Shown here: positions 28,347 to 45,945 of the stretch, one piece after another
Layout of the letters: every line of letters begins with the position of its first letter
Numbering within the stretch: the first letter of the stretch is position 1
Assembly (NCBI GenBank): GCA_028717805.1
Contig: JAQUNC010000005.1
Coordinates: 1,238 to 65,237, forward strand
DNA: 64,000 nucleotides
From: Atribacterota bacterium
GTDB lineage: Bacteria; Atribacterota; Phoenicimicrobiia; Phoenicimicrobiales; Stramentimicrobiaceae
Direction of reading: 5' to 3'
Made by a program: the position numbers and the translations under genes
The notes under the pieces: generated by a model
Seen by the model: only the letters and a program-made list of their open reading frames with translations
Databases searched by the model: none
What the model was told of the DNA's origin: nothing

Positions 28347-28618
28347 CTCAATTATTGAACTATTTTTTAATTACAGGAGTATTATTAACAGTATTTATTC
28401 TAATATCTCTGTTTCGTTTGATTTCCGGTCCCACTGTACCTGATCGTGTTGTAGCTATGGATACCATTAATACTTTAATTGTAGCAGGAATGATTCTCTT
28501 TGGTGCAGCCTTTGAAGAAATTATTTATATCGATGTGGCAATAGTATATGCCTTATTATCATATATTGCTACTCTGTATATTGCTAAATATCTTGAGAGG
28601 AGGGCAAAAGATAAGTGA
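28304..28618 (+). CDS. MrpF/MnhF-like subunit (MbhB)
   Basis: The probable start at 28343 ([15 protein letters not shown]) overlaps the previous stop in an ATGA. Small 3-TM protein. Confidence 0.75.
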
Positions 28619-29216: not shown

Positions 29217-29227
29217 GAGGTGAGATT

Positions 29228-29970: not shown

Positions 29971-30319
29971 TATGATTGGAAATTTTCCCTTTGTTGCAGT
30001 GGTAATTTTGATTGGATTAGGAATCTATACCCTGATTTTTAAGAAAAATCTAATTAAGATTGCCATCGGAATAACACTAATTGAAAATGGTACCAATTTA
30101 TTTTTAATTACTTTAGGATACCGAAAGGGAGCCGTAGCGCCAATTTATACACAGGCGCCAGAAGGAGTCAAAATGGTTCTTCCTACACCTCAAGCTTTAA
30201 CCTTGACCAGTATTGTTATAGGAGTTGCTACAACTGCTTTGATTCTTTCTATTGCCATGATTCTTTACCAAAAATATGGTACATTAAATACAGATGAAAT
30301 AAGGAGGTTAAGAGGATGA
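29915..30319 (+). CDS. MrpC/NuoK-like subunit (MbhG)
   Basis: Probable start at 29972 (MIGNFPFVAVVILIGLGIY). 3-TM NuoK/MnhC family. Confidence 0.8.
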   Translation: MFLPCLLPLKLYRRRRSRDMIGNFPFVAVVILIGLGIYTLIFKKNLIKIAIGITLIENGTNLFLITLGYRKGAVAPIYTQAPEGVKMVLPTPQALTLTSIVIGVATTALILSIAMILYQKYGTLNTDEIRRLRG

Positions 30320-31884
30320 GCAGCATTTTGATGCATGCACCTGCTTTAGTAATTGCCTTGCCTCTATTAGCGGCTTTTATTACTCCTGTTATAGGTCGTT
30401 TTAATCGTAAAACAATAAGTTGGTTTGTATCCTTTATATTAGGACTAACGTTATTATTGATCATATTCATAGCTAATCAGGTCTTAACTAATGGTGCTTT
30501 GATTTATGTTTTTGGAGGAAGTGAGGCAGGTTTAACATTACCATCTGGATATACAGTACCCATCAGAATCATTTTCCATATTGACGGAATGGGAATATTT
30601 ATGGGATTGATAACAGCCGTTGTCTCTTTTTTAGCTGCTATTTATTCAATTTCTTTTATGGAACAACATAGTGGATTAGAAAAGTATTACACACTGTTAC
30701 TCTTATTGGCAACCGGGATGTTTGGTATGGAATTAACTGGAGATATTTTCAACTTTTTTGTTTTTTTGGAGATCGCTTCTATTGCTTCAGTAGCGCTGAT
30801 TTCCTTTCGGAGTACTCTTGCAGGTGAACCTGCTGAGGCAGGATTTAAATATATGGTAGTTAGTTCCATATCTGCCTTAATGGTACTATTTGCTATTGGA
30901 TTATTTTATGGTCAATATGATGTTTTGAACATGGCGACTATTGCCAGTGTTATGCAATTTACCCAACTTGATAAAATAGCTTTAATACTTTTAGTATCTG
31001 TTTTGGCAATGAAGGCAGGTTCAGTGCCAATGCATATGTGGACACCAGATGCTTATTCGGAAGCCCCGGCAGCGATTACTATGGTTCTGGTTGCTGCCAG
31101 TCAAGCTAGCCTTTATGCTCTTTTTAGAATTACATTTTCTCTCTATAATGTCACTTTAAATACAGTAACAGTTGGCTGGATTATTATTATTCTGGGTATA
31201 CTTTCTATGTTTATCGGTGTTACTATGGCTATTATTCAGAAGGATATTAAGCGTTTAATGGCTTATCACGCCATTTCTCAGACTGGTTATATGCTTTTAG
31301 GAGTGGGAGTAGGCCTGGCTGTTCTAGCAAATCCGGTAGCTTTAGAAAGTTTTGGAATAAAAGCAATGGAAGGTGGAATCTTTCATATTATGAACCATGC
31401 TATGTATAAAGGTTTATTATTTTTAACTGCTGGTGCCTTATTCTATAGGACAGGTACCAGAGATTTAAATAAGATGGGTGGTTTAGCTAATAACATGATG
31501 TATACTACTATCTTCTTTATAATCGGTGCAGCAGCTATTGCTGGAATACCACCCTTTAATGGTTTTGCCTCCAAGTTAATTATCTATGAGTCAGTCTATC
31601 AATTTAATCCTTTATTATCAATTATTGCTATGCTGGTTAGTATTTTAACCCTGGCTTCTTTTGTGAAAGTATTTCATAGTGCCTTTTTAGGTCCTAAACT
31701 GGAAAAATATAAGTCAGTACAGGAAGTTCCTAAAAGTATGGTAGTGGCAATGGCTACCTTAGCCTGCATCATTGTATTTTTTGGATTATTTCCCGATCTC
31801 ATCGTTAAACATATTGTTCATCCTGCAGTGATGGCTTTGATTAATCAGGCTCACTATACCGCAACAATATTGGGAGGAATATAG
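30316..31884 (+). CDS. MrpD/NuoL/M/N-family antiporter-like subunit (MbhH)
   Basis: 522 aa with ~14 TM helices and the NADH-ubiquinone oxidoreductase chain 5/MrpD-like core. Confidence 0.88.
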   Translation: MSSILMHAPALVIALPLLAAFITPVIGRFNRKTISWFVSFILGLTLLLIIFIANQVLTNGALIYVFGGSEAGLTLPSGYTVPIRIIFHIDGMGIFMGLITAVVSFLAAIYSISFMEQHSGLEKYYTLLLLLATGMFGMELTGDIFNFFVFLEIASIASVALISFRSTLAGEPAEAGFKYMVVSSISALMVLFAIGLFYGQYDVLNMATIASVMQFTQLDKIALILLVSVLAMKAGSVPMHMWTPDAYSEAPAAITMVLVAASQASLYALFRITFSLYNVTLNTVTVGWIIIILGILSMFIGVTMAIIQKDIKRLMAYHAISQTGYMLLGVGVGLAVLANPVALESFGIKAMEGGIFHIMNHAMYKGLLFLTAGALFYRTGTRDLNKMGGLANNMMYTTIFFIIGAAAIAGIPPFNGFASKLIIYESVYQFNPLLSIIAMLVSILTLASFVKVFHSAFLGPKLEKYKSVQEVPKSMVVAMATLACIIVFFGLFPDLIVKHIVHPAVMALINQAHYTATILGGI

Positions 31885-31885
31885 T

Positions 31886-32227
31886 ATGAATATTGGTTTA
31901 TTAGAAACAGGAAGTGGTTACTGGAATGCGATAATATGGGTCTTAGTTACTATTATAGTTGGAATTGGTGTTTTATGGCTAAGGAATAAAGGTGAAGGAA
32001 ACTATAAAAAAGATACCAATCAAACAAAACCTTTCCTTTCTGGCAATCCAGAAGTAAGTAAAGAAGACTCTCATGTCGGAGCAAGCCATATCTACTGGGG
32101 ATTCACTGAGGCTTTAAAGAATTATTATGAGCCCCTGATTAAACTACATACCGGGGACATTAATGATTATAGTGGATGGATTGTTTTAGTAATGGCTATT
32201 ATATTTATTATAGTTGGGGTGAGTTAG
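31886..32227 (+). CDS. Small membrane subunit (MbhI-like)
   Basis: 113 aa with TM helices at the N- and C-termini, in the position and size of Pyrococcus MbhI. Confidence 0.55.
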   Translation: MNIGLLETGSGYWNAIIWVLVTIIVGIGVLWLRNKGEGNYKKDTNQTKPFLSGNPEVSKEDSHVGASHIYWGFTEALKNYYEPLIKLHTGDINDYSGWIVLVMAIIFIIVGVS

Positions 32228-32231
32228 CACA

Positions 32232-32702
32232 ATGAAATTAGATAAGTATTTAGATCGTTCTTTATGGGTATTTCATTTAAATACAGGTTCTTGTAATGGT
32301 TGTGATATTGAAATTGTGGCTTTATTAACACCAAGATATGATGTGGAAAGATTTGGTATAAAACTGGTGGGAAGCCCAAAGCATGCCGATGTACTATTAG
32401 TGACTGGTCCTGTCAATAGAAAGATGCTACCAAGGTTGAAACTGATATATGAACAGACTCCCGATCCCAAAGCTGTTATTGTAGTTGGCACCTGTGGTAC
32501 AAGTGGCGGTGTATTTTATGATTCTTATAATATAGTGGGACCAGTGGACAAGCACATTCCCGTGGATGTATATGTACCTGGATGTCCAATAAGGCCAGAA
32601 GCAATAATTAATGGAGTCTTGAAAGCCTGGTTAAAATTAGAGAGATTAAGAGGCTCCTCTGGTGCAGAGATTGAAAAGAAAATAGAAGAGGTTAGTGCTT
32701 AA
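32232..32702 (+). CDS. Group-4 [NiFe] hydrogenase small subunit (NuoB-like; MbhJ)
   Basis: NuoB/HycG family with Cys ligands (SCNGCD...GTCGTSGG...PGCP). Confidence 0.9.
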   Translation: MKLDKYLDRSLWVFHLNTGSCNGCDIEIVALLTPRYDVERFGIKLVGSPKHADVLLVTGPVNRKMLPRLKLIYEQTPDPKAVIVVGTCGTSGGVFYDSYNIVGPVDKHIPVDVYVPGCPIRPEAIINGVLKAWLKLERLRGSSGAEIEKKIEEVSA

Positions 32703-32730
32703 AATAAAATGAGAAGGTTCAGGTGATAAT

Positions 32731-33246
32731 ATGGAATATTATAATGCCCAAGAGTTATTATCATTTTTAGAAGAAAATTTGAAAGAAAACATTTTAGAAA
32801 TTCGCCTTGAATCCAGAAAGGCAGGAATCAAGCAGGAAGAGTTTCATAATATCTGGTTAGAGGTGAAAAGAGAAAAATTCAGGGGTACTGTGAAGCTATT
32901 AATGAGTTTACAATATCCTCACATTGCTATTATTTCCGGTCATGATACCGGCGAAACCATTGAACTGGTTTATCTTTTTTCCCTCTTTTATGGAGAGAAA
33001 TTTAAAGAAATTTCAATTAATGTCAAGGTGAGATTAGAGAGAAAGAATCCAGCTATCGAGAGTATAACTGATTTAATTCCTGGAGCTCAAACAACAGAAA
33101 GGGAAATTAAAGAGATGTTGGGAGTAGAATTCATAGGACTTCCGGATATGCGAAATATCTTTTTACCATACGATTTCCCTAAAAATGTTTTTCCCTTCCG
33201 AAAAGATCAAAAAGGCTTGGACGAACTCGTTCCAAAGGAAAGTTGA
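32731..33246 (+). CDS. NuoC-like 30-kDa subunit (MbhK)
   Basis: Complex I 30-kDa family fold, 171 aa. Confidence 0.8.
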   Translation: MEYYNAQELLSFLEENLKENILEIRLESRKAGIKQEEFHNIWLEVKREKFRGTVKLLMSLQYPHIAIISGHDTGETIELVYLFSLFYGEKFKEISINVKVRLERKNPAIESITDLIPGAQTTEREIKEMLGVEFIGLPDMRNIFLPYDFPKNVFPFRKDQKGLDELVPKES

Positions 33247-33257
33247 GGTGATTATAG

Positions 33258-34481
33258 TTGAGTAAATCTACTTATAAGGTACCCATCGGGCCTATTCATC
33301 CGTCATTGGAAGAACCAATGACCTTCAATTTTGAGATATCCGGCGAAAGAATTCAGTCGGTAGATTTAGCACCGGGTGATAATCATCGGGGTATCGAATT
33401 TATGGGAAGAAATAGAAATATTATTCAAATAATATATCTGGCAGAAAGAATTTGCGGGATATGTTCAGCTTCTCATCCCTTTGCTTTTTGTCGTGCCGTT
33501 GAAAACGCTGCTGGTATAGAGGTGCCGCCCAGAGCAGAATATATTAGAGTTATTATTTCTGAGTTAGAAAGAATTCATTCTCATATTCTCTGGGCAGGAG
33601 TAGCCGCACATGAGTTAGGTTTTGATTCAGTCTTATTCCTTTCCTGGAAAGTGAGAGAAGAGGTAATGGATCTATTGGAAATGCTTACTGGTAACCGGGT
33701 AAATTATGGGATGTTTATGATTGGTGGAGTTAGAAGGGACATTACGGAGCAACAAATTCCTTGGATTAGAAAAACTTTACAATATTATAAGGATGTTTAT
33801 CAGAAACTAGAAGATGTTTTTCTCAAAGATCCCAGTATTGCCTTAAGGACTAAGAATGTTGGTATTTTAACCTATGAGGAAGCACTCAATTTAGCCAGTG
33901 TTGGTCCTACAACCAGAGCTTCAGGAGTAAAAAAAGATATCAGACAGGATCAGCCATATTCGGCTTATGCTGATTTTGATGTTCAAGCTATCACACCGGA
34001 TAGTTATTCTGGTGAAGTAAATGGCGATGTTTTTGATCGTATTATTGTTCGAATATTGGAGGTTTTTCAGTCTGTCCAGATTATAGAATATTGTATCAAC
34101 AACTTACCTGATGGAGAAATATTATCAGAGCCAAAAATTGCCAAGTTATTAGGTGTTTTGAAAAAAGTGAAGGGAGAAGGTGTGGGCAGACATGAAGCTC
34201 CACGTGGTGAAGTTATTCACTATGTAAAATTAAATGAATCGGAAAATCCAGAGGTGTGGAAAGCAAGAGCACCGACTTATAATAATCTAATGTCCTGGAT
34301 GCCAATGTTACAGAGGCAGGAAGTAGCAGATATTCCTATTGTAATAGCTTCCATTGATCCCTGCATTGGTTGTATGGATAGAGTAACACTGGTTGATTCT
34401 AATACCTATAAAAAACAGGTGTTAACTAGAGAAGAATTAAGAAAGTTAAGTATCGAAAAAACCAGGAGGATGTTAAGATGA
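33258..34481 (+). CDS. Group-4 membrane-bound [NiFe] hydrogenase large subunit (NuoD-like; MbhL)
   Basis: N-terminal Ni-Fe ligand motif RICGICSASH and C-terminal DPCIGCMDR, followed by a ~30-aa cleavable extension. Confidence 0.9.
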   Translation: MSKSTYKVPIGPIHPSLEEPMTFNFEISGERIQSVDLAPGDNHRGIEFMGRNRNIIQIIYLAERICGICSASHPFAFCRAVENAAGIEVPPRAEYIRVIISELERIHSHILWAGVAAHELGFDSVLFLSWKVREEVMDLLEMLTGNRVNYGMFMIGGVRRDITEQQIPWIRKTLQYYKDVYQKLEDVFLKDPSIALRTKNVGILTYEEALNLASVGPTTRASGVKKDIRQDQPYSAYADFDVQAITPDSYSGEVNGDVFDRIIVRILEVFQSVQIIEYCINNLPDGEILSEPKIAKLLGVLKKVKGEGVGRHEAPRGEVIHYVKLNESENPEVWKARAPTYNNLMSWMPMLQRQEVADIPIVIASIDPCIGCMDRVTLVDSNTYKKQVLTREELRKLSIEKTRRMLR

Positions 34482-35485
34482 GTGGGAGCAGTATTTTAAT
34501 CTTTATTCTCAAAATTGTTAGCGCTCTAATAATTGCTGTAATTGGTATATTGGTAGGTTTATTCTATAAAGGCATTGATCGTAAATTAGCTGCTATGATG
34601 CAATCCCGGGTAGGACCTCCGGTTAGACAGCCTTTTCTTGATTTTTTTAAGCTAATGATAAAGGAAAATATCGTTCCCGAAAATGCTATTCCCTGGATTT
34701 TTAATGGTGCACCAATGCTAGCTCTGGTTTCCACAATTACCATTTTATTTTATATTCCTTATGGTTCGCTACCAGCATTGTTTGGAAATTCTGGTGATTT
34801 GATATTAATTGCCTATCTGCTGGCTATACCAGCAATTGCCCTGGTAGCTGGTGGTTTTTCTTCAGGATCTACTTATGCCAGTATTGGAGCACAAAGAGAG
34901 ATGGTTTTGATGATGAGTTATGAACTCCCTCTGGTTACTACCATTGTTGCTTTAGGGTGGAGATTAAATTTGGCCTACCCCGGATTAAAGGTTTTTTCCT
35001 TAGCAGTTTTAAGTGCTAATCCTATCTGGAGTTTAGTTGGCCCGCTGGGTTTTATTGGCGCCATATTGTTGCTCTTTACCTTAGCTATTGTAACTCCAGC
35101 AGAGTTATCCATTGTTCCTTTTGATATTCCTGAAGCAGAAACCGAACTGGCAGGAGGCATCTTGGTGGAGTATTCTGGTCGAAATTTAGCCTTATTTGAA
35201 CTGGCTAATGCAGTAAAAATGATAGTAATGGGAGCCTTGACTGTTGTTTTATTTTTCCCATATAATATTGCCCATTTATTTTCATTAAATGGCTTCTTTG
35301 CCTATATTGTCGATACGTTATTCTTTTTCTTTAAATTATTCATTGTCATATTCTTTGAAGCAACCTTTATTAGAGTTGCTATAGCACGTTTAAAAATTGA
35401 TCAAGCTTCAGTTGCTTATTTAGTATTTCTTTCTATAGTTGGTTTGATGGGTTTATTATTGATAGCTATTGATTATATTATCTAA
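34478..35485 (+). CDS. NuoH-like membrane subunit (MbhM)
   Basis: 335 aa with 8 TM helices; NuoH/HycD/EchB family. Confidence 0.85.
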   Translation: MSGSSILIFILKIVSALIIAVIGILVGLFYKGIDRKLAAMMQSRVGPPVRQPFLDFFKLMIKENIVPENAIPWIFNGAPMLALVSTITILFYIPYGSLPALFGNSGDLILIAYLLAIPAIALVAGGFSSGSTYASIGAQREMVLMMSYELPLVTTIVALGWRLNLAYPGLKVFSLAVLSANPIWSLVGPLGFIGAILLLFTLAIVTPAELSIVPFDIPEAETELAGGILVEYSGRNLALFELANAVKMIVMGALTVVLFFPYNIAHLFSLNGFFAYIVDTLFFFFKLFIVIFFEATFIRVAIARLKIDQASVAYLVFLSIVGLMGLLLIAIDYII

Positions 35486-35568
35486 TATCGAAATTTCTTT
35501 GAAGTTTTGATATTGCTAAAGATAATTTATTTACATAATCTATATAGAAGAAGTGTTCAGATATTCCT

Positions 35569-35597
35569 AAGGGGAAGAATTCCCTAGGGATATCCTG
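35569..35597 (+). repeat. GC-rich hairpin element, copy C (AAGGGGAAGAATTCCCTAGGGATATCCTG)
   Basis: AGGGGAA...TTCCCT inverted repeat with the shared 3' GATATCCTG tail. It sits inside the 217-nt gap between mbhM and mbhN. Confidence 0.4.
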
Positions 35598-35702
35598 ATT
35601 ATAAAATAAAAGAAATTTTTTTAAAATGTATTTACTTTAAGGGATTTTAAGGCCTATCTACCCTGATTAACAGGCAATATAGATGAAATGAGGTGATAAA
35701 GA

Positions 35703-36110
35703 ATGCCGACACCAATAGTGTTTGAGTTAATCAAACAACTTTTTCATAGACCTGCAACGAACTGTTTCCCGGTGAAATATTATCCCAGCCAAACAACTGT
35801 TACTGATCTTATTAAAAAAGTCCAGGATGGCCAGGTGAAGATAAACTCACCGGTAACGGTACCGGAGAAATTTAGAGGGAAAATAGTCTATGATAGGGAA
35901 AAATGTATCGGATGTCGCTTATGTGTTAGGGTATGTCCTTCCCGAGCGATTGAATTTCTTCCGGAAGAAAAAAAGATTAAAATCAGAATTGACCGCTGTA
36001 TATTTTGTGCACAGTGTAATGATGTTTGTCCGGTCAATTGTCTGAGTATGTCTGAAAACTTTCTTTTAGCAAATGAAGATCGTTTTGATTCAGAGATGAT
36101 TGTCCAATAA
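35703..36110 (+). CDS. NuoI-like 2x[4Fe-4S] ferredoxin subunit (MbhN)
   Basis: Two CxxCxxCxxxCP motifs (CIGCRLCVRVCP; CIFCAQCNDVCP). Confidence 0.88.
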   Translation: MPTPIVFELIKQLFHRPATNCFPVKYYPSQTTVTDLIKKVQDGQVKINSPVTVPEKFRGKIVYDREKCIGCRLCVRVCPSRAIEFLPEEKKIKIRIDRCIFCAQCNDVCPVNCLSMSENFLLANEDRFDSEMIVQ

Positions 36111-36153
36111 TTTAAATTAAACAAGATAAGATGAAGTATAATGATTGTTTTAT

Positions 36154-36205
36154 AAAATACTAAGATGCTACATTTTTATGAAGTATCTTAGTATTTGATT
36201 TTTAT
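36154..36205. terminator. Bidirectional intrinsic terminator between convergent mbhN and hycI
   Basis: Perfect 12-bp inverted repeat AAATACTAAGAT / ATCTTAGTATTT flanking a ~17-nt loop, followed by GATTTTTAT. Confidence 0.55.
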
Positions 36206-36526
36206 ATAACCATTAGTAATATCTTGAAAGACTGTTTGATGGTTACATGAAACGACTTTACCACAAAGATTGATGTATACTAATTGACTATTTTCTACTC
36301 GAGGTTCAAAGTGGTAAGTTGTGTTACTGTTACTTAGATTGTTAAGATTAAATAAAATATTACATAAAAAAGAAAAGGGGAGAATAAAAAGTAATTTTAA
36401 AAAAGTTTAGTCTAGCATAAAAGTTCTTAAAGCTATCAGTGGTATAGGTATGTGTTTGCCTATACATTAAGTCAGTTTGAAATTTATAATTCTTTCTAGT
36501 CGATAGAAGAGTAAAAGGAGAAAGGA

Positions 36527-36973
36527 TTAGGTGAAAATTGGAATAGCTTTAAGCTGGTTCTTTTCCAATAAGTTTTTAAGCTGATAGCATGCCTTTAGCA
36601 CTGGTTTACTTAAATTTTCACTCATTTCAGTTGAAAGAGGTTGAATACCGATAAGTATGATTTTATGGCAATCAGGAGTCAAGTATTCTATGAGATAGGA
36701 CAGAGACAGGTAATGAGTGGAAAGTTGCAGGGAAACAATTTTTTCTACGGGGATTACCCTAATACTACCTGCAATAAGATTCATTTCAACAGCATCGATA
36801 ATTACCAACAGTTCAGGATGAATATTTTTAATAACTGAAGTGTAGTTTTCTGGAGCCGATTTTCCGTCTATCACCATCCAGTTATGATGCTTGAAATGCT
36901 GGGCAATAAAAGAACCAGCACCATCATCAGACCTTAGGGAATTACCTATCCCTAGGAGACAATTTTTGGACAT
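36527..36973 (-). CDS. hycI: Hydrogenase maturation endopeptidase (HycI/HybD family)
   Basis: LLGIGNSLRSDDGAGSFIAQHF...LLVIIDAVEMN are the HycI/HyaD Ni-dependent protease motifs. Confidence 0.82.
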   Translation of the reverse strand: MSKNCLLGIGNSLRSDDGAGSFIAQHFKHHNWMVIDGKSAPENYTSVIKNIHPELLVIIDAVEMNLIAGSIRVIPVEKIVSLQLSTHYLSLSYLIEYLTPDCHKIILIGIQPLSTEMSENLSKPVLKACYQLKNLLEKNQLKAIPIFT

Positions 36974-37430
36974 TGAAAAAGTATTCCTTAATCTTTAAAA
37001 ATTTAAATATTTTATAATTAAGTTCCTAACTTATATTATCATCGAGTCTATGCTAATATAATATCATAAAAATAAGGGTATGTAGATTATGGTTATTGTA
37101 CTATAGTAGTCCTGTTTGAATAAAGCTGCAAAAAAGTAAATCAGAACTGTAATGAAAGAATGTATTATAGAACATAACTCAAATATGATATTGTAATAAC
37201 ATAATATTGAGGTTTAATTAAACTATAATATTTACTATTGGAGCAATGATTATAAAAAGTTGCAGTAAAGCACAAAGGATTGTAATATTATATTATAATA
37301 AAGATATAATTTCCTTTTGTTGTTTGAATCATATACTCTGAATGTTTTTAAAACAGAATTTTCTAATAATATTATCGGGTAAAGTTTGACAAAAAATCAA
37401 TATGGATTTAAAAAATAGACAGAAGGATGG

Positions 37431-38123: not shown

Positions 38124-38226
38124 CAAGAAGATTATTCAGACAGTCTTTCAGAGATACAATATTTAGAAAGGATAATTTCTTATTAAGATTAGTAAAAAAT
38201 ACATTCCGCAAGCTACTATCGATCGA

Positions 38227-38820
38227 TTGTCAATTTATCATAGAACCTTAGCATCTTTGATTGAAGCAAAGAGAGTTAATGAATTTTCTACAATTTCCTC
38301 GTCCAGACTGTCAGATATAACCGGCATTAATCCCCATCAGATTAGAAAAGACCTTTCTTATTTTGGTGAATTTGGGAAAAGGGGAATTGGCTATCCTGTC
38401 CTGGAATTATTCACTAAATTAAAGGAGATATTGAAATCAAATCAAAAATGGAATTTAGTACTCGCTGGTGCTGGTAATTTAGGGACTGCCTTCCTTTGTT
38501 ATAAAGGATTCCTCAAAAGAGGCTTTATCATAAAAGCAGTATTTGATAATGATATGGCTAAAGTAGGTAAAAAAATTGGCAATATCAGGATCAGACATAT
38601 CCAGGACATGGAAAAATTTCTAAAAGAGCAGAAAATACGAATTGGTATTATTGCAGTACCTTCCCAATCGGCTCAAGAAGTAGCTGACCAGATGATTGCT
38701 GGAGGAGTCAGGTCAATACTTAATTTTGCTCCTATTAGTATAAAACATCCCCGGAAAATATCAATTAAACATATTGATATTGCTATTGAACTTGAAAAGC
38801 TGGTCTATTACTTATCTTAA
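38227..38820 (+). CDS. rex: Redox-sensing transcriptional repressor Rex (true N-terminus lies upstream of the annotated TTG)
   Basis: Full-length similarity to Bacillus Rex (GAGNLGTAFLCY Rossmann motif, SILNFAP). The conserved IPQATIDRL N-terminal helix is encoded in frame upstream of 38227, and no canonical start codon is available there. Confidence 0.9.
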   Translation: MSIYHRTLASLIEAKRVNEFSTISSSRLSDITGINPHQIRKDLSYFGEFGKRGIGYPVLELFTKLKEILKSNQKWNLVLAGAGNLGTAFLCYKGFLKRGFIIKAVFDNDMAKVGKKIGNIRIRHIQDMEKFLKEQKIRIGIIAVPSQSAQEVADQMIAGGVRSILNFAPISIKHPRKISIKHIDIAIELEKLVYYLS

Positions 38821-38956
38821 ATTTTATAAAATTATTATTTGTTAACAGGAGTGATGTATTTAAAATAAAACTAGATGACGAAATAATTTATGGCCATAAA
38901 TTTAAGGATGAGTTTGACATATATTAAGGGCATATGATAAAATGACTTGGTGTGCT

Positions 38957-38974
38957 TTGTGATATTTTTCACAA
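38957..38974. promoter_or_regulatory. Rex operator (TTGTGATATTTTTCACAA)
   Basis: Matches the Rex-box consensus TTGTGAA-N4-TTCACAA at 16 of 18 positions. It lies 100 nt upstream of the first gene of the sensor-FDH cluster. Confidence 0.7.
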
Positions 38975-39073: not shown

Positions 39074-39421
39074 ATGAAAATAAAAGATATTGTCAATACA
39101 TTAGATGCCGAGGTCTTGACTGGAGAAGACTTGCTAGATCAGAATATTGAGGAGTTTGCAGCCAGTGATCTATTAAGTGATGTTCTTGCTTTAAGCAAGG
39201 ACAATTTTTTATTATTAACTGGATTAACCTCTCATCAGGTGGTAAGAACCGCTGAGATTGCCGGAGGGGTAGGTGTGGTTTTTGTGAGGGGGAAAGCTCC
39301 TGAACAGGAAGCAATTGGTCTAGCTCGTTCCCACCGTATCCCACTTTTAATGACCTCCAAAACAATGTTTGATGCCTGTCGGGCAATTGTTGAGGCAATT
39401 ATTAGTGAAGAGAAGAAATGA
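39074..39421 (+). CDS. DRTGG-domain protein
   Basis: 115 aa; the VVRTAEIAGGVGVVFVRGKAPEQEAIGLARSHRIPLL region fits the DRTGG fold. Such proteins are typically found next to CBS/GHKL proteins. Confidence 0.55.
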   Translation: MKIKDIVNTLDAEVLTGEDLLDQNIEEFAASDLLSDVLALSKDNFLLLTGLTSHQVVRTAEIAGGVGVVFVRGKAPEQEAIGLARSHRIPLLMTSKTMFDACRAIVEAIISEEKK

Positions 39422-40350
39422 CAATTTTACATTCCAGAGAAAAATTAACTTTAGCCAATGAGCTGATTTATGAGTTAAAAGTGAAAGATGCTATGACCAG
39501 TAAGGTAATTTTTTTTGGTGAGCAGGCTACCTTTCGTGAGATTCAATTGTCTTTGAAACAAAATAGAATTTCAGGAGTTCCAATCCTGGATGAGCAGAAA
39601 AATATAATTGGCATTGTCAGTATTGATAATGTAATTACTGCTCTGGATGAAGATTATGTGAACGATACGGTAAAAGATTATATGACTAAAGATGTGATAA
39701 CCATTCCTCAAAATTATTCTTTGGTTTCAGCTATAAAGAAGTTTGAAAGATATAAATTTGGTCGTTTACCGGTAACAGGGAATGCCCATTCCCGTAAAAT
39801 AGTTGGTATCATAACTATGGGAGATATTTTAAATCGACTGCTGCTAACTATTCAAACCATTGCCGAGAAAGTGGAACAAAAAGAAAACAGAAATTATCAG
39901 CTTTCCGATACCTTAATTAAGAATACTCCACAGAAACCACTTCGTTTTGAAGTCAAAAAAGCTGACTTTGATAATGCTGGCAGAGTAGCCAGTATCATAA
40001 GAACTTATCTACAAAAAATGACCATAGATAAACAGATTATTCGAAGAGTTGCCATTATTTGTTATGAGGCAGAGATGAATATTAGTATCCATTCCTTGGG
40101 GGGATATATTTCAGTAGAATTGGAACAGAATAGTATTATTATTACTGCTGTTGATTATGGGCCAGGTATTCCGGATATAGAAGAAGCAATGAAACCTGGT
40201 TTTACAACTGCTTCTGAACAGATCAGAGCTTTAGGATTTGGTGCAGGCATGGGTTTGCCCAATATAAAAAAATGCGCTGATCATCTAGAATTAGAATCTT
40301 CTATGGAAACCGGTACTATTTTAAAAGCAGTTATCCATATAGGAGGATAG
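39418..40350 (+). CDS. CBS-pair + GHKL (anti-sigma-factor-type Ser kinase-like) ATPase domain protein
   Basis: Two CBS domains (ISGVPILDEQKNIIGIVSIDNV; FGRLPVTGNAHSRKIVGIITMGDIL) followed by an HATPase_c-like C-terminus (DYGPGIPDIEEAMKPGFTT...GAGMGL). Confidence 0.75.
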   Translation: MTILHSREKLTLANELIYELKVKDAMTSKVIFFGEQATFREIQLSLKQNRISGVPILDEQKNIIGIVSIDNVITALDEDYVNDTVKDYMTKDVITIPQNYSLVSAIKKFERYKFGRLPVTGNAHSRKIVGIITMGDILNRLLLTIQTIAEKVEQKENRNYQLSDTLIKNTPQKPLRFEVKKADFDNAGRVASIIRTYLQKMTIDKQIIRRVAIICYEAEMNISIHSLGGYISVELEQNSIIITAVDYGPGIPDIEEAMKPGFTTASEQIRALGFGAGMGLPNIKKCADHLELESSMETGTILKAVIHIGG

Positions 40351-40352
40351 AG

Positions 40353-40697
40353 ATGAAATTAAGCCAGATTATAGTTAGATGTTCTTTGCAGAAGATTGTA
40401 TTCTGTTCAGATGAGGAAATCAAAACAGGTTATTGTGGAGATTTAATGTCAGATGTTATTGCCCATGCCAGCAATGATAGTGTATGGATTACTATCCAAG
40501 CACATAAAAACAGTATAGCTGTAGCGCTGATCAAGGATATAAGGGCAATTATCTTTACCAATAATGTAGAAATAAACCAGGAATTGATAGAAAAAGCCAG
40601 GGAAGAACAGATTAATCTATTGAGAACTGAAAAAAATTCTTTTCAAATATGTGGTCTATTGTACCAGATGCTGGGAGGCAAATCTGATCAAGATTGA
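40353..40697 (+). CDS. Small DRTGG-like domain protein
   Basis: 114 aa; resembles the second DRTGG-type protein of hydrogenase-associated sensory modules. Confidence 0.45.
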   Translation: MKLSQIIVRCSLQKIVFCSDEEIKTGYCGDLMSDVIAHASNDSVWITIQAHKNSIAVALIKDIRAIIFTNNVEINQELIEKAREEQINLLRTEKNSFQICGLLYQMLGGKSDQD

Positions 40698-41430
40698 TTT
40701 ACATATTCACTCTTCTCTTTCAGCGTGTGGGGAAAATATTATGTCACCACAAAATATATTGAAAAAGGCAGAAAAAAGTGGATTCAACCTAATTGCTATT
40801 ACTGATCACAATGCGGTTGCCCATTCGATTTTAATTAGTAAAATTAATAAAAAAAGCTCGGTTAATGTTATTCTCGGGATTGAGCTGACTACCCGGGAAG
40901 AGATTCACTTATTGGGTTATTTCCCAGATGAATTTAGTATGAGAGAGATGGAGAAGAAGATAAATGATTGTCTGCCAAAAATGAATAATAAACCTTCTTT
41001 TTTTGGTGACCAGCTAATCTATGATGAAAAAGGAGAGATAGTTGAAATAGATTATATGCTAAGACAAAATGCTTTACAAATAAGCTTAGATGAGTTGATT
41101 GACTTCATTCATTTTCTGGGTGGAATAGCAATACCGGCTCATATTAATAGAGATTACTGTAGTATAAAAAGCCAGATAGGTTTTTTAGATCCTACTAGTA
41201 ATTTTGATGCAGTAGAAGTATCAAGATTCGAATGGATAAATAAGAAATATGAAATAGGAGATTTACTGGAAGGATTCCCGGTAATTAGCGGTTCAGATAG
41301 CCACTTTTTGGAAGATATTGGAACATTTTTTTTGGAAGTAAAAGATGATAATCATGTAATAGATTTTAACTCATTGCAAGATTTTCTAAGGAAGACCGGA
41401 AATGAAAAATATAGCGGACCATCTCTTTGA
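40651..41430 (+). CDS. PHP-domain (polymerase/histidinol-phosphatase) metal-dependent phosphoesterase
   Basis: IDLHIHSSLSACGE...IAITDHN PHP motifs. The ATG at 40651 overlaps the upstream gene by 47 nt and the conserved domain begins near 40693, so the start is uncertain. Confidence 0.78.
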   Translation: MVYCTRCWEANLIKIDLHIHSSLSACGENIMSPQNILKKAEKSGFNLIAITDHNAVAHSILISKINKKSSVNVILGIELTTREEIHLLGYFPDEFSMREMEKKINDCLPKMNNKPSFFGDQLIYDEKGEIVEIDYMLRQNALQISLDELIDFIHFLGGIAIPAHINRDYCSIKSQIGFLDPTSNFDAVEVSRFEWINKKYEIGDLLEGFPVISGSDSHFLEDIGTFFLEVKDDNHVIDFNSLQDFLRKTGNEKYSGPSL

Positions 41431-41938
41431 TATTATAGAAAATTCAGTTAATGCCGGGGCAAATGAAGTTATTGTGAAAATAACTTACACTAAAAGTATT
41501 TTTTTTTGTAGCATTTCCGATAATGGGAAAGGAATTATTGGGCAGGAAGTATTAGATCCTTTTGTAACTTCTAGGAAGACCAGAAGAGTTGGACTGGGTC
41601 TTCCCTTATTAAAAAGAACAGCAGAGGATACCGGCGGATATTTAAAGATAAGAAGGATAAATAAAAAAGGAGGGACTGCGCTTCAATTTAAGATAGACAT
41701 GTCTCATATTGATGCCAAACCTTTTGGTGATTTGGCTTGGACTTTTACAGATATATTCTTTGCCTGGCCGGAAATTAATCTTAAATTATTTATTACAAAA
41801 GAAGATAGAGAGGAACTGATTTTAGATTTCCTGGAATTACGCAATGAAATTGCTAAAGGATTAAAAAATTATATAAAAATAAGAAAACATATTTATGAGG
41901 TATTACAAAAAGAATTTAAAAAAATAAATATTAGGTAA
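41402..41938 (+). CDS. GHKL-type ATPase domain protein (histidine-kinase-like, no sensor or DHp domain)
   Basis: ENSVNAGANEV...SDNGKGI...GLGLPLL are the N, G1 and G2 boxes of an HATPase_c domain. Confidence 0.65.
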   Translation: MKNIADHLFDIIENSVNAGANEVIVKITYTKSIFFCSISDNGKGIIGQEVLDPFVTSRKTRRVGLGLPLLKRTAEDTGGYLKIRRINKKGGTALQFKIDMSHIDAKPFGDLAWTFTDIFFAWPEINLKLFITKEDREELILDFLELRNEIAKGLKNYIKIRKHIYEVLQKEFKKINIR

Positions 41939-41996
41939 CTTATTTTTAAGGTATTAATATTATTCAATACAAATTAATGTTTGGAGAGGAGGAGCT

Positions 41997-42365
41997 ATGA
42001 AAAATTTAGAAGAACTAAAAATGATGCGGGAGAAGGTAAAGAAAGATTTAAAGCTTAGATCGGGAAAGCATCGTGTCAAGATAGTAGTAGGAATGGGTAG
42101 TTGTGGAATAGCTGCTGGGGCGAGAGAAACAATGAATGAATTCTTGGAATTGATTGAAAAAAGCAAAAAAACGGATATTATTATTACCGCTTCAGGATGT
42201 TTTGGTTTTTGCGCCCAAGAACCTATGATTCATGTGTATGTAGAAGAAGATAGACCGGTAACTTATCGCAATGTTGATGTAGAAGCAGCAAGGACAATCT
42301 TTAACGATCATGTTTTAAACAATAGAGTAGTAGAAAAATATTTATTTTCAAAGGGGAAAAAATAA
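41997..42365 (+). CDS. Thioredoxin-like [2Fe-2S] ferredoxin (HydD-like)
   Basis: 122 aa with Cys pairs MGSCGIAAG...SGCFGFCAQEP; NuoE-C-terminal-like fold. Confidence 0.7.
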   Translation: MKNLEELKMMREKVKKDLKLRSGKHRVKIVVGMGSCGIAAGARETMNEFLELIEKSKKTDIIITASGCFGFCAQEPMIHVYVEEDRPVTYRNVDVEAARTIFNDHVLNNRVVEKYLFSKGKK

Positions 42366-42862
42366 TGAGTGAAACAACTATCATTAAAAATGATGAATGC
42401 ACTGTTGAAGAAAAGTACCAGGAATTAGGGAGTTTTATTAGAGATAATCAAGAGAAAAGGGGCTATTTAATCCCCGTCTTGTATAAAGCGCAATCCTTGT
42501 TTGGTTATTTACCTTCAGAAGTCCAAAAATTCGTTGCCGAGGAGATGAATATTTCTGTTAGTGAAGTATTTGGAGTGGTTACATTTTATTCTTATTTCAA
42601 AACACAACCTGTAGGTCGGCATACTATTACAATCTGCATGGGAACAGCTTGTTATGTAAGAGGTGCTAAAAAGATTCTGGAGGCATTAGAAAATAAATTG
42701 GGTATAAAGATAGGAGAAACAACAGAAGATCTGAGATTTACTTTAGGAGAACAACGTTGTTTTGGGTCATGCGGAATGGCTCCAGTTATTATGATTGACA
42801 ATGAAGTTCATGGTCGGTTAACTCCCAGTAAATTAGACGCAATTTTAGAGAAATACAAATAG
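42365..42862 (+). CDS. NADH dehydrogenase 24-kDa subunit-like [2Fe-2S] protein (NuoE/HydC/HndA-like)
   Basis: TICMGTACYVRGAKKI...RCFGSCGMAPVIMID is the NuoE signature. Confidence 0.9.
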   Translation: MSETTIIKNDECTVEEKYQELGSFIRDNQEKRGYLIPVLYKAQSLFGYLPSEVQKFVAEEMNISVSEVFGVVTFYSYFKTQPVGRHTITICMGTACYVRGAKKILEALENKLGIKIGETTEDLRFTLGEQRCFGSCGMAPVIMIDNEVHGRLTPSKLDAILEKYK

Positions 42863-42884
42863 TTTAATAAGGAGTACATAAATT

Positions 42885-45800
42885 ATGAATAATATAAGAG
42901 TTCAGCTTCTTCTATGTCATGGTACTTCTTGTATGTCTAATGGTTCAGTAAGAGTTAGAGAAGCGTTGGAAGTGGCATTAAAAGAGGCTAATCTGGAAAA
43001 AGAGGTAGAAATTATTACCACTGGATGTATGGGTATATGTGAACTGGGACCCATTATGGTTGTTTATCCTGATGGAGTGTTTTATCAACAATTAAAACCA
43101 GAGGATGCCCGGGAAATTGTACAGGAACATATCTTAAAAGGCAGAGTAGTGCAGCGGCTTTTTTATAAAAAGCCAAAAACAGAAGAATTAGTAGCTATGA
43201 TAGAAGATATTGATTTCTTTAAATTACAGAGAAAAATTGCTCGCCGAAACTGTGGAATTATTGATGTTAACACCATTGATGATTATATCGGCGCTGATGG
43301 TTTTATGGCTTTAGGGAAAGCTTTGACAGAGATGACTCCCCAGCAAGTAATTGATGAGATTAAAAAATCAGGGTTGAGAGGTAGAGGTGGTGCCGGTTTT
43401 CCAACTGGATTGAAGTGGGAATTTGCAGCAAGAGCCTCTGGAAAACAAAAATATATTTTATGTAATGCAGACGAAGGTGATCCCGGTGCATTTATGGATC
43501 GTAGTATGCTAGAAGGAGACTCTTACAGTGTATTAGAAGCTATGATGATTGGCGGTTATGCTATTGGAGCTAACCAGGGATATATTTATGTACGAGCGGA
43601 GTATCCCTTGGCTATTGAAAGGCTAAAGATTGCCATCAAAGAGATGAGGAAACATCAGCTACTGGGCAAGAATATCCTGGGGACTGGTTTTGATTTTGAT
43701 GTTGAAATTAGAATGGGTGCGGGAGCATTTGTTTGTGGTGAGGAAACTGCTTTAATGCGCTCTATTGAAGGCAAGAGGGGAGAACCCAGGCCAAGACCTC
43801 CCTTCCCTGCTAATAAAGGATTATTTGAATCCCCTACTGTTTTAAATAATGTAGAAACGCTGGCTAATATACCTTATATAATTTTATATGGAGCTGAAAA
43901 TTTTGCTTCTGTTGGAACTGAAAAGAGTAAAGGAACTAAGATATTTGCTCTGGCTGGAAATATTAACAATACCGGTTTAATTGAAGTCCCCATAGGTATT
44001 ACCCTAGGTGAAGTTGTTTATAATATAGGCGGAGGGATTCCGGGAAATAAAAAATTTAAAGCTGTTCAAATTGGCGGTCCGTCTGGTGGTTGCATTCCAG
44101 CACAACATCTGAATACAATAGTTGATTATGAAACATTAAAAGAGCTGGGTGCCATTATGGGCTCAGGCGGATTGATAGTAATGGATGAAGATACCTGTAT
44201 GGTCGATATAGCCCGTTATTTTATGGAGTTTATTCAGGACGAATCTTGTGGTAAATGCACTCCTTGTCGTGAAGGTACCAGGGTGATGCTGGAGATATTA
44301 ACCAGGATTTGTGAAGGTAAGGGCAAGATGGAAGATCTGGATACCCTGGAAGAATTATCTTATCGAATTAAAGATACAGCTCTTTGTGGATTAGGACAAA
44401 CTGCCCCCAATCCGGTTCTATCCACATTAAGATACTTTAGACATGAGTATATCGAACATATTAGAGATAAGAAATGTAGAGCAGGAGTATGTGCAGAATT
44501 AGTATATGCACCTTGTAATAATTCTTGTCCTGCTTCAGTTAATGTACCGGCATATCTGGCTTACACCAAAGAGGGTCAATATAAAAAAGCAATGCAGGCA
44601 CACTTAAGAACAAATCCTTTTCCAGCGGTATGCGGAAGGGTATGCCCTGCTTTCTGTGAATCCAGATGTCGAAGAAAGGATATTGATGATGCCATCAATA
44701 TTCGTGCTGTCAAGAGATTTATGGCTGATCAGGTTGATAATTATCTGGATTGTTTCCCTGAAAAAAATAGTAAAAATGGTAAAAAAGTTGCCATTATTGG
44801 TGGTGGTCCTTCTGGACTTTCCAATGCTTATTTTCTAACTATGTTAGGATATGAAACAACAGTATTTGAAGCACAACCAAAAGCTGGAGGAATGTTAACC
44901 TATGCTATCCCATCTTATCGTTTACCAAAGAATATTGTGAAAAAAGAGATTCAAGCACTGGTAGATTACGGAGTTAAGATACAAACAAACACAAGGATTG
45001 GAGAGGATATGACTTTAGATCAGCTGAGAAAAGAAGGTTACCAAGCATTCTATGTTTCTGCTGGTGCCTGGGACTGCATTATGCCTGAGATGGACAACTT
45101 AGATGATTCCAGAATTTTTAGCGGTTTAGAATTCTTATCTAAATTTAATAGAAAGGAAAAGCTTGATATTGGCAAAGAGGTAATAGTGATTGGTGGCGGT
45201 AATTCTGCCATTGATGCAGCTAGAACTGCTAAAAGGCTTGGAGCAAAGGTTACCATCGTTTATCGAAGAACCAGAGAAGAAATGCCTGCTGATGAAGCTG
45301 AAGTTAATGAAGCTGAAAGAGAAGGTATAAAGATTTCTTTACTACAAAATATAAAGTCAGTGAAATCAAACAAAGATTTCCTGGAAGTAGAGTTAGTGAA
45401 TATGAAATTAGGCAATTATGATGCTTCTGGTCGGCGTAAGCCCATTGAAATTAAAGAATCTACTTTTATCAAGAAAGTCGATTGTTTAATCTTATCTATT
45501 GGGCAAAAACCTGCTATTTCAGATTTATTCCATAATGAAGAAATTGTTCTCAATCGGGATCAGACTATTCCCACTGAAAAAGGAGTAACCAAAATACAAG
45601 ATGTTTTTGCCGGTGGTGATGTGGCATTAGGTCCTGCTACTGTAGTTGAGGCGATAGGAGAAGCACAGAATGCTGCTGAAGCTATTGATTTTTATTTAAC
45701 TGGTAAAAAGAGAGTTTATCCCTGGAGGATAAAAGATCCAATTAACGTGGATTTTGATCCTGAATCAGATCCAGTAGATTACGCACGTTCTCAGGTCCAT

Positions 45801-45914: not shown

Positions 45915-45945
45915 TATTGAAAGAAAGGATTGAAATAGAATTAAA

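What the first reader, a model, noticed from the sequence alone, without database searches (positions are those of the whole stretch)
38173..38229. rex appears to initiate at a non-canonical start codon (the conserved IPQATIDRL helix is encoded upstream of the only TTG/ATG)
The in-frame translation upstream of the annotated TTG (38227) reads ...FLIKISKKYIPQATIDRL-SIYHRTL. This matches the universally conserved Rex N-terminal DNA-recognition segment (KIPQATAKRLPLYYRFL in Bacillus). The frame is open back to the TAA at 38173-38175, and it contains no ATG, GTG or TTG. The candidates are ATT at 38182 (9 nt after GAAAGGA) or ATT at 38188. This means either an AUU/AUA initiation, as in infC, or a sequencing error hiding a start.
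Basis: seen in the sequence. Interest (0 to 1): 0.55.

Follow-up and report, generated by a model that had tools for sequence, protein, structure and literature searches.

The report
Rex repressor gene starting at AUU
The gene for the redox-sensing repressor Rex in this Atribacterota genome has no normal start codon ahead of an essential part of the protein, and comparison with 16 related genomes indicates that it starts at a weak AUU (AUC in some relatives) codon placed after a conserved ribosome-binding site. It is a real but modest new example of a known way of keeping a regulator scarce.

Summary
The rex frame is open from TAA 38173-75 and has no ATG, GTG or TTG before TTG 38227, yet it encodes KKYIPQATIDR, the start of helix α1 of the Rex winged-helix domain. 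This stretch includes an invariant Arg whose T. maritima counterpart contacts DNA.

Sequencing error is excluded. Three independent assemblies are identical to the window here. All 17 distinct sequences studied (a 16-member clade at 67-96% identity, plus L009) have the same layout: (A)GAAAGG Shine-Dalgarno, 8-10 nt, ATT (13) or ATC (3), then a Lys codon. Nine of them have an in-frame stop 1-2 codons upstream. One sequence, L006, is an exception.

The upstream codons are under protein-level purifying selection (pN/pS 0.16). A perfect Rex operator downstream is conserved in the Atribacterota loci.

The best explanation is SD-directed initiation at AUU 38182, giving a 212-aa Rex made at low efficiency. 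The second ATT, 38188, is a weaker candidate.

This is a new member of a known kind; infC, pcnB, and S. aureus ccpN and cvfC1 are precedents. NCBI records already give ATT starts to some orthologues, at inconsistent positions. Other public gene calls are truncated to 170-197 aa. I found no paper on it. Interest is modest.

The parts
38165..38172 (+). Shine-Dalgarno-like sequence AGAAAGGA; the core (A)GAAAGG is conserved across the clade
   Evidence: All 17 distinct sequences carry GAAAGG, AAGAGG or AAAAGG at 8-10 nt (measured from the GG) upstream of the ATY codon. No -10-like element is conserved at this position. Most other genes in the window also have an AGGAG-type SD.
38173..38175 (+). 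In-frame TAA that closes the rex frame upstream and rules out any start further 5'
   Evidence: An equivalent in-frame stop lies 1-2 codons upstream of the ATY codon in 9 of 17 sequences.
38182..38184 (+). Proposed initiation codon ATT (AUU), 9 nt after GGA; it would be read as fMet and give MKISKKYIPQATIDRL...
   Evidence: The homologous codon is ATT in 13, ATC in 3 and ACT in 1 of 17 sequences, and it is followed by AAG or AAA in 16 of 17. In a more distant Atribacterota group a TTG occupies the same position, SD plus 9 nt.
38188..38190 (+). Second in-frame ATT, the alternative and less likely initiation codon (15 nt from GGA)
   Evidence: This codon is ATT in only 8 of 17 sequences; elsewhere it is GGA, ACG, GCA, GTT, GTC, GAT, TCC or TAT. 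NCBI records use this codon for two orthologues. It is the only ATT available in L006.
38185..38226 (+). Codons 2-15 of Rex (KISKKYIPQATIDR): a flexible N-terminus and the beginning of helix α1, including the invariant Pro9, Ile13 and Arg15
   Evidence: Pfam gains 18 bits when this stretch is included. P9, I13 and R15 are invariant in 28 Atribacterota Rex proteins. In the AlphaFold2 model, helix α1 spans residues 10-28. Arg15 aligns with T. maritima Arg12, which contacts DNA (PMC8836258). For the 10 codons 38200-38229 (YIPQATIDRL, the last being TTG 38227 itself) pN/pS is 0.16, against 1.6 and 2.7 in the other two frames.
38227..38229 (+). TTG, an internal Leu16 codon that gene callers wrongly take as the start
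   Evidence: No SD precedes it. The homologous codon is TTG in only 3 of 17 sequences and TTA, CTG, CTA, CTT or ATA in the rest. Leu16 is an invariant residue.
38182..38820 (+). rex coding sequence as re-annotated here (212 aa plus stop)
   Evidence: The length falls in the range of solved Rex proteins (207-224 aa). The GxGxxG motif is present (G96, G98, G101) and the recognition-helix residues R55 and K56 are conserved.
38914..38943 (+). Promoter-like site TTGACA-18-TAAAAT (11 of 12 matches, TG-extended) for the downstream operon
38957..38974 (+). Perfect Rex operator TTGTGATATTTTTCACAA, just after the -10 element and upstream of the operon that begins at 39074
   Evidence: it is the only perfect match in 64 kb; exactly one perfect match lies downstream of rex in every Atribacterota locus that extends that far.

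Best explanation
rex is an intact, functional gene whose translation starts at the near-cognate codon AUU at 38182.

Proposed mechanism: the 30S subunit is positioned by the conserved Shine-Dalgarno sequence AGAAAGGA (38165-38172). This places AUU, 9 nt downstream, in the P site. Initiator fMet-tRNA pairs with it with a third-position mismatch. The product is a 212-aa Rex, MKISKKYIPQATIDRL..., with a complete winged-helix domain.

AUU and AUC are discriminated against by IF3 and initiate at only a few percent of the AUG rate in the bacteria where this has been measured. The likely consequence is that the repressor is made at a low level that depends on IF3. The protein then represses the adjacent formate dehydrogenase/NuoEF-type operon through the perfect operator at 38957-38974.

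What is shown directly:
- there is no canonical start ahead of the conserved segment;
- the SD/ATY layout is conserved across the clade;
- the upstream codons are under protein-level selection;
- the operator is conserved.

What is inferred:
- the exact initiation codon;
- the low initiation efficiency;
- any selective reason for a weak start.
For: 1. There is no ATG, GTG or TTG between TAA 38173 and TTG 38227.

2. The stretch upstream of TTG is essential Rex sequence. Pfam gains 18 bits with it. P9, I13 and R15 are invariant. Arg15 corresponds to the DNA-contacting Arg12 of T. maritima Rex. The model places the α1 helix at residues 10-28.

3. All 17 distinct sequences (a 16-member clade at 67-96% amino-acid identity to the window, plus L009 at 60%) come from different MAGs and metagenomes and share the same layout. 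ATT occurs in 13 and ATC in 3, at 8-10 nt after GG, followed by a Lys codon. Nine have an in-frame stop 1-2 codons upstream. The 16-member clade is monophyletic, and the ATC forms make up one sub-clade.

4. Over codons YIPQATIDRL, pS is 0.66 and pN 0.11, a ratio of 0.16. This equals the ratio for the body of the gene (0.157). The other two frames give 1.6 and 2.7.

5. The TTG 38227 homologue is TTG in only 3 of 17 sequences, and no SD precedes it.

6. Three independent assemblies are identical to the window in this region.

7. Control: 67 of 67 rex loci outside the clade have a canonical start upstream of α1. Among 63 ORFs in the window, rex is the only one that lacks a canonical start with an SD and has an upstream near-cognate codon with an SD.

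8. The perfect Rex operator is conserved downstream of rex in the Atribacterota loci, so DNA binding is under selection.

9. The translation initiation region is unstructured.

10. There are experimental precedents. In E. coli, AUU, AUC and AUA initiate at 1-2% of the AUG rate, and infC and pcnB use AUU (10.1101/063800). In S. aureus, conserved AUU and AUA starts of cvfC1, ccpN, citZ and infC were mapped by Ribo-Ret and gave about 10% of AUG expression (PMC13009471).
Against: - There is no experimental evidence for this organism: no N-terminal peptide, ribosome profiling or reporter assay.
- One clade member, L006, has ACT at the homologous position and an ATT only two codons later, so the exact codon is not uniform.
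- NCBI records place the start at other ATT codons, the second ATT or the ATT of 'IPQ'.
- ATT is also the preferred Ile codon here. Conservation of ATT or ATC alone would fit an internal Ile codon. The in-frame stops and the SD spacing are what make it the start.
- The 3' end of this organism's 16S rRNA was not available, so SD pairing could not be confirmed.
- The low-efficiency figures come from E. coli and S. aureus, not from Atribacterota.
Confidence: 0.8

Rival explanations
1. Translation starts at the second ATT (38188), giving a 210-aa Rex, MSKKYIPQ.... This is also a non-canonical start, only two codons later.
For: The codon is in frame and near-cognate. NCBI records use the homologous ATT for orthologues NLL62169.1 and HPK86494.1. 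It is the only ATT available in L006.
Against: The homologous codon is ATT in only 8 of 17 sequences; it is GGA, ACG, GCA, GTT, GTC, GAT, TCC or TAT in the others. It lies 15 nt from GGA, against 9 nt for 38182. Sequences without it must start at the first ATY anyway.
Confidence: 0.12
2. Translation starts at TTG 38227 (or further downstream) and the cell makes an N-terminally truncated Rex. On this view the upstream similarity is a relic or a DNA-level constraint.
For: TTG 38227 is the only canonical start, and gene callers choose it: P0001 is 197 aa, and the truncated calls for relatives are 170-189 aa.
Against: No SD precedes the TTG. The codon is TTG in only 3 of 17 sequences. The upstream codons evolve under frame-specific purifying selection (pN/pS 0.16). 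Truncation would remove the invariant P9, I13 and the DNA-contacting Arg15, and the first third of helix α1. The conserved operator argues that DNA binding is retained.
Confidence: 0.04
3. The missing start is an artefact or decay: a sequencing or assembly error hides an ATG, or the gene is a pseudogene that lost its start.
For: A single base change, ATT to ATG, would restore a canonical start. MAG assemblies do contain errors.
Against: Three independent assemblies from different runs are identical to the window. Sixteen other distinct sequences show the same state. The ORF is intact everywhere, with pN/pS about 0.16. The operator is conserved.
Confidence: 0.01
4. The N-terminus is supplied by another mechanism: a programmed frameshift from an upstream ORF in another frame, leaderless initiation, or re-initiation coupled to the upstream SPOR-domain gene.
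For: An A-rich run, A AAA AAA T, lies at 38193-38200. A weak -10-like GATAAT overlaps the SD. The SPOR gene ends 58 nt upstream in the window, and SPOR-rex synteny is conserved.
Against: Neither alternative frame has a canonical start upstream. One is open from 38102 with only a CTG; the other has stops at 38184, 38190 and 38193 (read directly). Leaderless translation normally needs a 5' AUG, and the -10-like element is not conserved, whereas the GG of the SD is. Re-initiation after the SPOR gene would still have to select the same AUU through the same SD, so it modifies the main explanation rather than replacing it.
Confidence: 0.03

Closest known systems
S. aureus / B. subtilis ccpN (AUA start) and S. 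aureus cvfC1 (AUU start), mapped by Ribo-Ret (PMC13009471)
   Same: ccpN also encodes a metabolic transcriptional repressor. Its near-cognate AUH start is conserved among orthologues and sits behind a conserved SD at a suitable spacing. The authors interpret it as a way of limiting and tuning the yield of the regulator.
   Different: The protein family and the phylum differ. The S. aureus cases have long, extended SD motifs and direct experimental proof (initiation profiling and AUG-swap reporters). Here the SD is (A)GAAAGG(A) and the evidence is only comparative.
E. coli infC (IF3) AUU start
   Same: It uses the AUU start codon class, is conserved across many species, and its initiation is sensitive to IF3 discrimination.
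   Different: In infC the product, IF3, is itself the discriminator, which creates an autoregulatory loop. Rex is not a translation factor, so no such loop exists and any IF3 dependence would be one-way.
E. coli pcnB (poly(A) polymerase I) AUU start
   Same: An inefficient AUU start limits the expression of a protein that is needed only at a low level (cited).
   Different: pcnB encodes an enzyme, not a repressor. It has been shown experimentally, and conservation across a deep clade was not the argument used there.
Canonical Rex repressors (B. subtilis, T. maritima, T. aquaticus, T. ethanolicus; PDB 2VT2, 5ZZ5/7WB3, 3IKT, 3WG9)
   Same: The domain architecture matches: PF06971 winged helix plus a Rossmann NAD(H) domain. 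The DNA-contact residues match, and the operator TTGTGA-N6-TCACAA lies next to a redox-metabolism operon.
   Different: In this clade the gene lacks a canonical start codon. All 67 rex loci outside the clade that I checked have one.

Membership tests
Rex redox-sensing repressor family | N-terminal winged-helix DNA-binding domain (Pfam PF06971), complete with helix α1 | tested here: met
   From ATT 38182 the score is 52.6 bits over profile positions 2-49 of 49. This is met only if translation starts upstream of TTG 38227; from the TTG the match covers positions 11-49 only.
Rex redox-sensing repressor family | C-terminal Rossmann NAD(H)-binding domain with a GxGxxG motif | tested here: met
   PF02629 scores 71.6 bits. 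G96, G98 and G101 are invariant. The protein aligns over its full length to solved Rex structures at E 1e-36 to 1e-43.
Rex redox-sensing repressor family | Conserved DNA-contact residues (T. maritima Arg12, Arg48, Lys49 and the Gly-rich wing) | tested here: met
   Window residues Arg15, Arg55, Lys56 and the stretch FGEFGKRGIGY align with them. The residue roles are taken from PMC8836258.
Rex redox-sensing repressor family | A cognate inverted-repeat operator, TTGTGA-N6-TCACAA, at target promoters | tested here: met
   There is one perfect site at 38957-38974, just after a promoter-like site. It is conserved in the Atribacterota loci fetched.
Rex redox-sensing repressor family | DNA binding that responds to the NADH/NAD+ ratio | not testable with these tools
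   This needs EMSA or ITC with purified protein.
Genes with a conserved non-canonical (AUU/AUC/AUA) start codon | No canonical start codon can account for conserved N-terminal protein sequence | tested here: met
   Searches show this for the window. Searches show it for the relatives, 9 of 17 sequences having in-frame stops 1-2 codons upstream.
Genes with a conserved non-canonical (AUU/AUC/AUA) start codon | A near-cognate codon at a functional distance from a Shine-Dalgarno sequence, conserved among orthologues | tested here: met
   The ATY codon lies 8-10 nt after the GG of (A)GAAAGG in 16 of 17 sequences. L006 is the exception.
Genes with a conserved non-canonical (AUU/AUC/AUA) start codon | The initiation site or the protein N-terminus has been mapped experimentally | not testable with these tools
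   No proteomic or ribosome-profiling data for this organism were available.
Genes with a conserved non-canonical (AUU/AUC/AUA) start codon | Lower initiation efficiency than AUG | not testable with these tools
   This is inferred from E. coli (1-2%) and S. aureus (about 10%).
infC-type autoregulated AUU start | The gene product is IF3, which discriminates against its own start codon | tested here: not met
   The product is Rex.
Leaderless mRNA | A 5'-terminal AUG and no SD | tested here: not met
   There is no ATG, and a conserved SD is present. The transcript's 5' end was not mapped.
Programmed ribosomal frameshift | An upstream ORF in another frame, with its own start, that feeds into the rex frame | tested here: not met
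   Neither alternative frame has a canonical start upstream of 38200 (read directly).

The most novel reading that the evidence does not exclude
The AUU/AUC start is actively maintained by selection, not merely tolerated. Synonymous sites have diverged to near saturation, yet the third base has changed only between U and C and never to G. On this reading the weak start couples Rex abundance to IF3 activity and to the translational or growth state of the cell. That would add a translational input to NADH-responsive control of formate and hydrogen metabolism in Atribacterota, much as has been suggested for ccpN in S. aureus.
Probability: 0.25. Interest if true: 0.5.

Novelty: new member of a known kind. 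Interest (0 to 1): 0.38.

Why it matters
- **Annotation.** Most public protein records for this clade's Rex are truncated to 170-197 aa and lack part of the DNA-binding domain. The NCBI records that do use ATT pick inconsistent codons, giving 205, 210 and 187 aa for essentially the same gene. Homology models, regulon predictions and domain statistics built on these records inherit the error.

[quoted passage not shown] It occurs in a global metabolic repressor of an uncultivated phylum. That fits the emerging picture, from ccpN and cvfC1, that weak start codons are used to set the dosage of regulators.

- **Methods.** Gene callers restricted to ATG, GTG and TTG fail systematically on such genes. 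The signature seen here could be searched for genome-wide: a conserved SD, an in-frame stop, then ATY, with protein-level conservation upstream of the first canonical start.

Tried and rejected
- **Sequencing error:** rejected, because three independent assemblies are identical to the window.
- **Pseudogene:** rejected; pN/pS is 0.16 and the ORF is intact in all relatives.
- **Frameshift from another frame:** rejected by direct reading; the other frames have no starts.
- **The upstream TTG or ATG that overlaps the SD** (the called start of P0003 and P0004, and of L010-L013): rejected as the general start. The same TTG is cut off from rex by in-frame stops in L076 and L110, and it is TAG or CAG in other members.
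- **A -10 promoter element or leaderless mRNA at GATAAT 38171-76:** rejected, because the TAAT is not conserved whereas the GG is.
- **Genome-wide relaxed start-codon use:** not supported. rex is the only one of 63 window ORFs with this signature. This is based on one window only.
- **RNA structure around the start:** none found (z = 0.62).
- **Rex autoregulation through an operator upstream of rex:** no site found there.
- **The metagenome scan with the single protein as query** returned only three close relatives. More came from the look-up of encoding contigs.
- **Literature searches** for a rex ATT start, or for Atribacter start codons, found nothing relevant.
- **The 13-mer AAGGATTGAAATA** shared by two 5' regions does not extend into a longer alignment.

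Full report
**1. The observation**

The rex frame is closed by TAA at 38173-38175. It then reads TTT CTT ATT AAG ATT AGT AAA AAA TAC ATT CCG CAA GCT ACT ATC GAT CGA (FLIKISKKYIPQATIDR) up to TTG 38227. There is no ATG, GTG or TTG in between. The mechanical ORF list gives a 197-aa ORF starting at TTG 38227. GAAAGGA lies at 38166-38172 and ATT 38182 follows after 9 nt. A second ATT is at 38188.

**2. The upstream stretch is real Rex sequence**

- Translated from 38182, the protein matches the Pfam Rex N-terminal domain PF06971 over profile positions 2-49 (52.6 bits). From TTG 38227 it matches only positions 11-49 (34.2 bits).
- Solved Rex proteins from T. maritima, B. subtilis, T. ethanolicus, T. 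aquaticus/thermophilus and S. agalactiae align from query residues 4-8 onto their own residues 3-6. A 212-aa product therefore has a family-typical N-terminus and length.
- In an alignment of 28 Atribacterota Rex proteins, P9, I13, R15 and L16 are invariant.
- An AlphaFold2 model (mean pLDDT 82.5) places helix α1 at residues 10-28.
- In the T. maritima Rex-DNA-NAD+ structure, helix α1 supports DNA binding and Arg12 contacts the DNA (PMC8836258). By the alignment, Arg12 is the window's Arg15, encoded by CGA 38224-38226, immediately before the TTG.
- The same paper shows that α1 packs against α9 of the partner subunit, the element that transmits the NADH signal.
It is α1; the recognition helix is α3.

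**3. It is not an error, and it is clade-wide**

The organism is an Atribacterota member, judging from the source names of the homologues.

In the protein database, nearly all relatives at 70-99% identity are called as truncated proteins of 170-197 aa. That prompted a look at their DNA. I collected the start regions from 16 further distinct relatives, drawn from GTDB species representatives, JGI metagenomes, ENA and Logan assemblies.

All 17 sequences, the window included, lack a usable canonical start upstream of the IPQAT motif. All have (A)GAAAGG (variants AAGAGG and AAAAGG) followed 8-10 nt later by ATT (13 sequences) or ATC (3 sequences). The next codon is AAG or AAA in 16 of 17. In nine sequences an in-frame stop lies only 1-2 codons upstream of the ATY codon.

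The one exception is L006. It has ACT at that position and an ATT two codons later.

Two sequences, L106 and L108, have a TTG that overlaps the SD (TTGAAAGGA) and happens to be in an open frame. That is the start called for P0003 and P0004. The same TTG is separated from rex by stop codons in L076 and L110, and it is TAG or CAG in other members, so it is part of the ribosome-binding site and not the conserved start.

Three assemblies from different sequencing runs are 100% identical to the window across 38124-38240.

As a control, 67 of 67 rex loci outside this clade (other phyla) with a recognisable α1 motif have a canonical start upstream of it.

**4. The upstream codons are translated**

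Across the 17 sequences, the ten codons YIPQATIDRL give pS = 0.66 and pN = 0.11, a ratio of 0.16. This equals the ratio for a 24-codon block in the body of the gene (0.157). The same nucleotides read in the other two frames give ratios of 1.6 and 2.7. All ten third-codon positions vary, against four second positions.

The codon homologous to TTG 38227 is TTG in only 3 of 17 sequences, and no SD precedes it.

**5. Which codon**

The codon homologous to 38182 is ATY in 16 of 17 sequences. It sits at the spacing from the SD at which a more distant Atribacterota group (L014-L020, L066) has a TTG.

The codon homologous to 38188 is ATT in only 8 of 17.

I therefore favour 38182 (product MKISKKY...), with 38188 as the minor alternative.

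A neighbour-joining tree shows the group without a canonical start as monophyletic (16 tips, down to 67% identity to the window). The three ATC forms make up one sub-clade. One further lineage outside it, L009, has the same state.

**6. Functional context**

A perfect Rex operator, TTGTGATATTTTTCACAA, lies at 38957-38974. It is the only perfect match in the window. It sits directly after a strong promoter-like site, TTGACA-18-TAAAAT, at 38914-38943.

The operon that follows it encodes, in order:
- DRTGG, CBS/HATPase and PHP regulatory-type proteins;
- a NuoE-like protein;
- a 1009-aa NuoF-GltD fusion;
- a 924-aa formate-dehydrogenase-like molybdopterin enzyme;
- a formate transporter.

Every Atribacterota locus that extends far enough has exactly one perfect operator at the equivalent place. 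Rex DNA binding is therefore evidently maintained in the lineages with ATY starts. This argues against a truncated or dead protein.

**7. Mechanism**

The best explanation is ordinary SD-directed initiation at a near-cognate AUU. The translation initiation region is A-rich and unstructured.

In E. coli, AUU, AUC and AUA initiate at about 1-2% of the AUG rate, and only infC and pcnB are confirmed natural cases (10.1101/063800). In S. aureus, initiation-site profiling found conserved AUU and AUA starts in cvfC1, ccpN, citZ and infC. These gave about 10% of AUG expression, and ccpN's start responded to growth medium (PMC13009471).

ccpN is the closest analogue. It too encodes a metabolic repressor with a conserved near-cognate start behind a conserved SD.

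By analogy, the AUU start should keep Rex scarce and sensitive to IF3. This step is inferred.

If the 16S rRNA ends in ...CCUCCUUUCU-3', as it does in many bacteria, AGAAAGGA would pair over 8 nt. This could not be checked because no rRNA gene is in the window.

**8. Is it general in this genome?**

I surveyed 63 ORFs in the window. Most have a canonical start with an AGGAG-type SD. rex is the only ORF that lacks a canonical start with an SD and also has an upstream near-cognate codon with an SD in a long open extension. It therefore looks gene-specific, within the limits of one window.

**9. Novelty**

I found no paper describing a non-canonical rex start or unusual start-codon use in Atribacterota.

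The feature is, however, implicitly present in public annotation. NCBI records NLL62169.1 and HPK86494.1 (210 aa) start at the second ATT. HOR42750.1 and HOF03103.1 (205 aa) start at the ATT of 'IPQ'. Other records of the same gene are 187 or 170 aa, starting at downstream ATGs. None uses the SD-proximal ATY codon favoured here.

The finding is therefore a real, conserved non-canonical start and a new member of a known kind. It has practical value for annotation and moderate biological interest.

**10. Limits**

- All the evidence is comparative.
- The exact initiation codon, the initiation efficiency and any adaptive reason for a weak start remain to be shown experimentally.
- L006 is unexplained.

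Noticed in passing
window 38914-38974: A strong promoter-like site (TTGACA-18-TAAAAT with TG) is followed directly by a perfect Rex operator, TTGTGATATTTTTCACAA. One perfect operator lies at the equivalent place downstream of rex in every Atribacterota locus fetched that extends that far. In the Gemmatimonadota loci the operator lies instead just upstream of rex, which suggests autoregulation there.
   Followed up: partly
window 39074-49626: The operon downstream of rex encodes DRTGG, CBS+HATPase, DRTGG, PHP and HATPase proteins, a 122-aa protein with no Pfam hit, a NuoE-like 2Fe-2S protein, a 1009-aa NuoF-GltD fusion, a 924-aa NuoG-N-terminus/molybdopterin formate-dehydrogenase-like protein, and a FocA-type formate transporter. 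It looks like a Rex-controlled NAD(P)H-linked (possibly bifurcating) formate dehydrogenase module, carrying the regulatory genes usually seen next to [FeFe]-hydrogenases.
   Followed up: partly
window 45925-45948 and 1630-1653 (also 37275-37287, with 1 mismatch): The 13-mer AAGGATTGAAATA occurs upstream of two start codons, in both cases 16 nt before the canonical start (TTG 1651, ATG 45946). For the fdhA-like gene an in-frame ATT AAA lies at 45940, 10 nt after AAGGA. That is the same SD-ATT-AAA layout as in rex, so its true start may also be ambiguous. The similarity does not extend beyond the 13-mer.
   Followed up: partly
window 27837-36973: Upstream of rex there is a run of short membrane-subunit-like ORFs and a NADH-dehydrogenase subunit-1-like gene (34478-35485). 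A HycI-type hydrogenase maturation protease lies on the minus strand (36527-36973). This suggests an Mbh/Mrp-type membrane hydrogenase cluster. Only two of these genes were checked against Pfam.
   Followed up: partly
L010-L013 and L008 (Atribacterota rex loci): In these lineages, an ATG overlaps or directly follows the SD (ATG AGA GGA ... 9 nt ... ATT AAx), and no SD of its own lies upstream of that ATG. The SD-plus-9-nt ATT is also present. It is unclear whether these genes start at the ATG or, like the window's clade, at the ATT.
   Followed up: no
public protein records of clade orthologues (P0013 cluster, P0080 cluster): The same rex gene appears in public databases with four different N-termini: 210, 205, 187 and 170 or 129 aa. 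NCBI records use two different ATT codons. This is a systematic annotation inconsistency.
   Followed up: yes
L109 (Logan SRR27370449), rex start region: This relative carries a 5-codon tandem duplication in the N-terminal tail (KKYIRNKYIPQ). Its ATT start would therefore lie 13 codons, not 8, before the Pro codon. The flexible tail tolerates changes in length.
   Followed up: no
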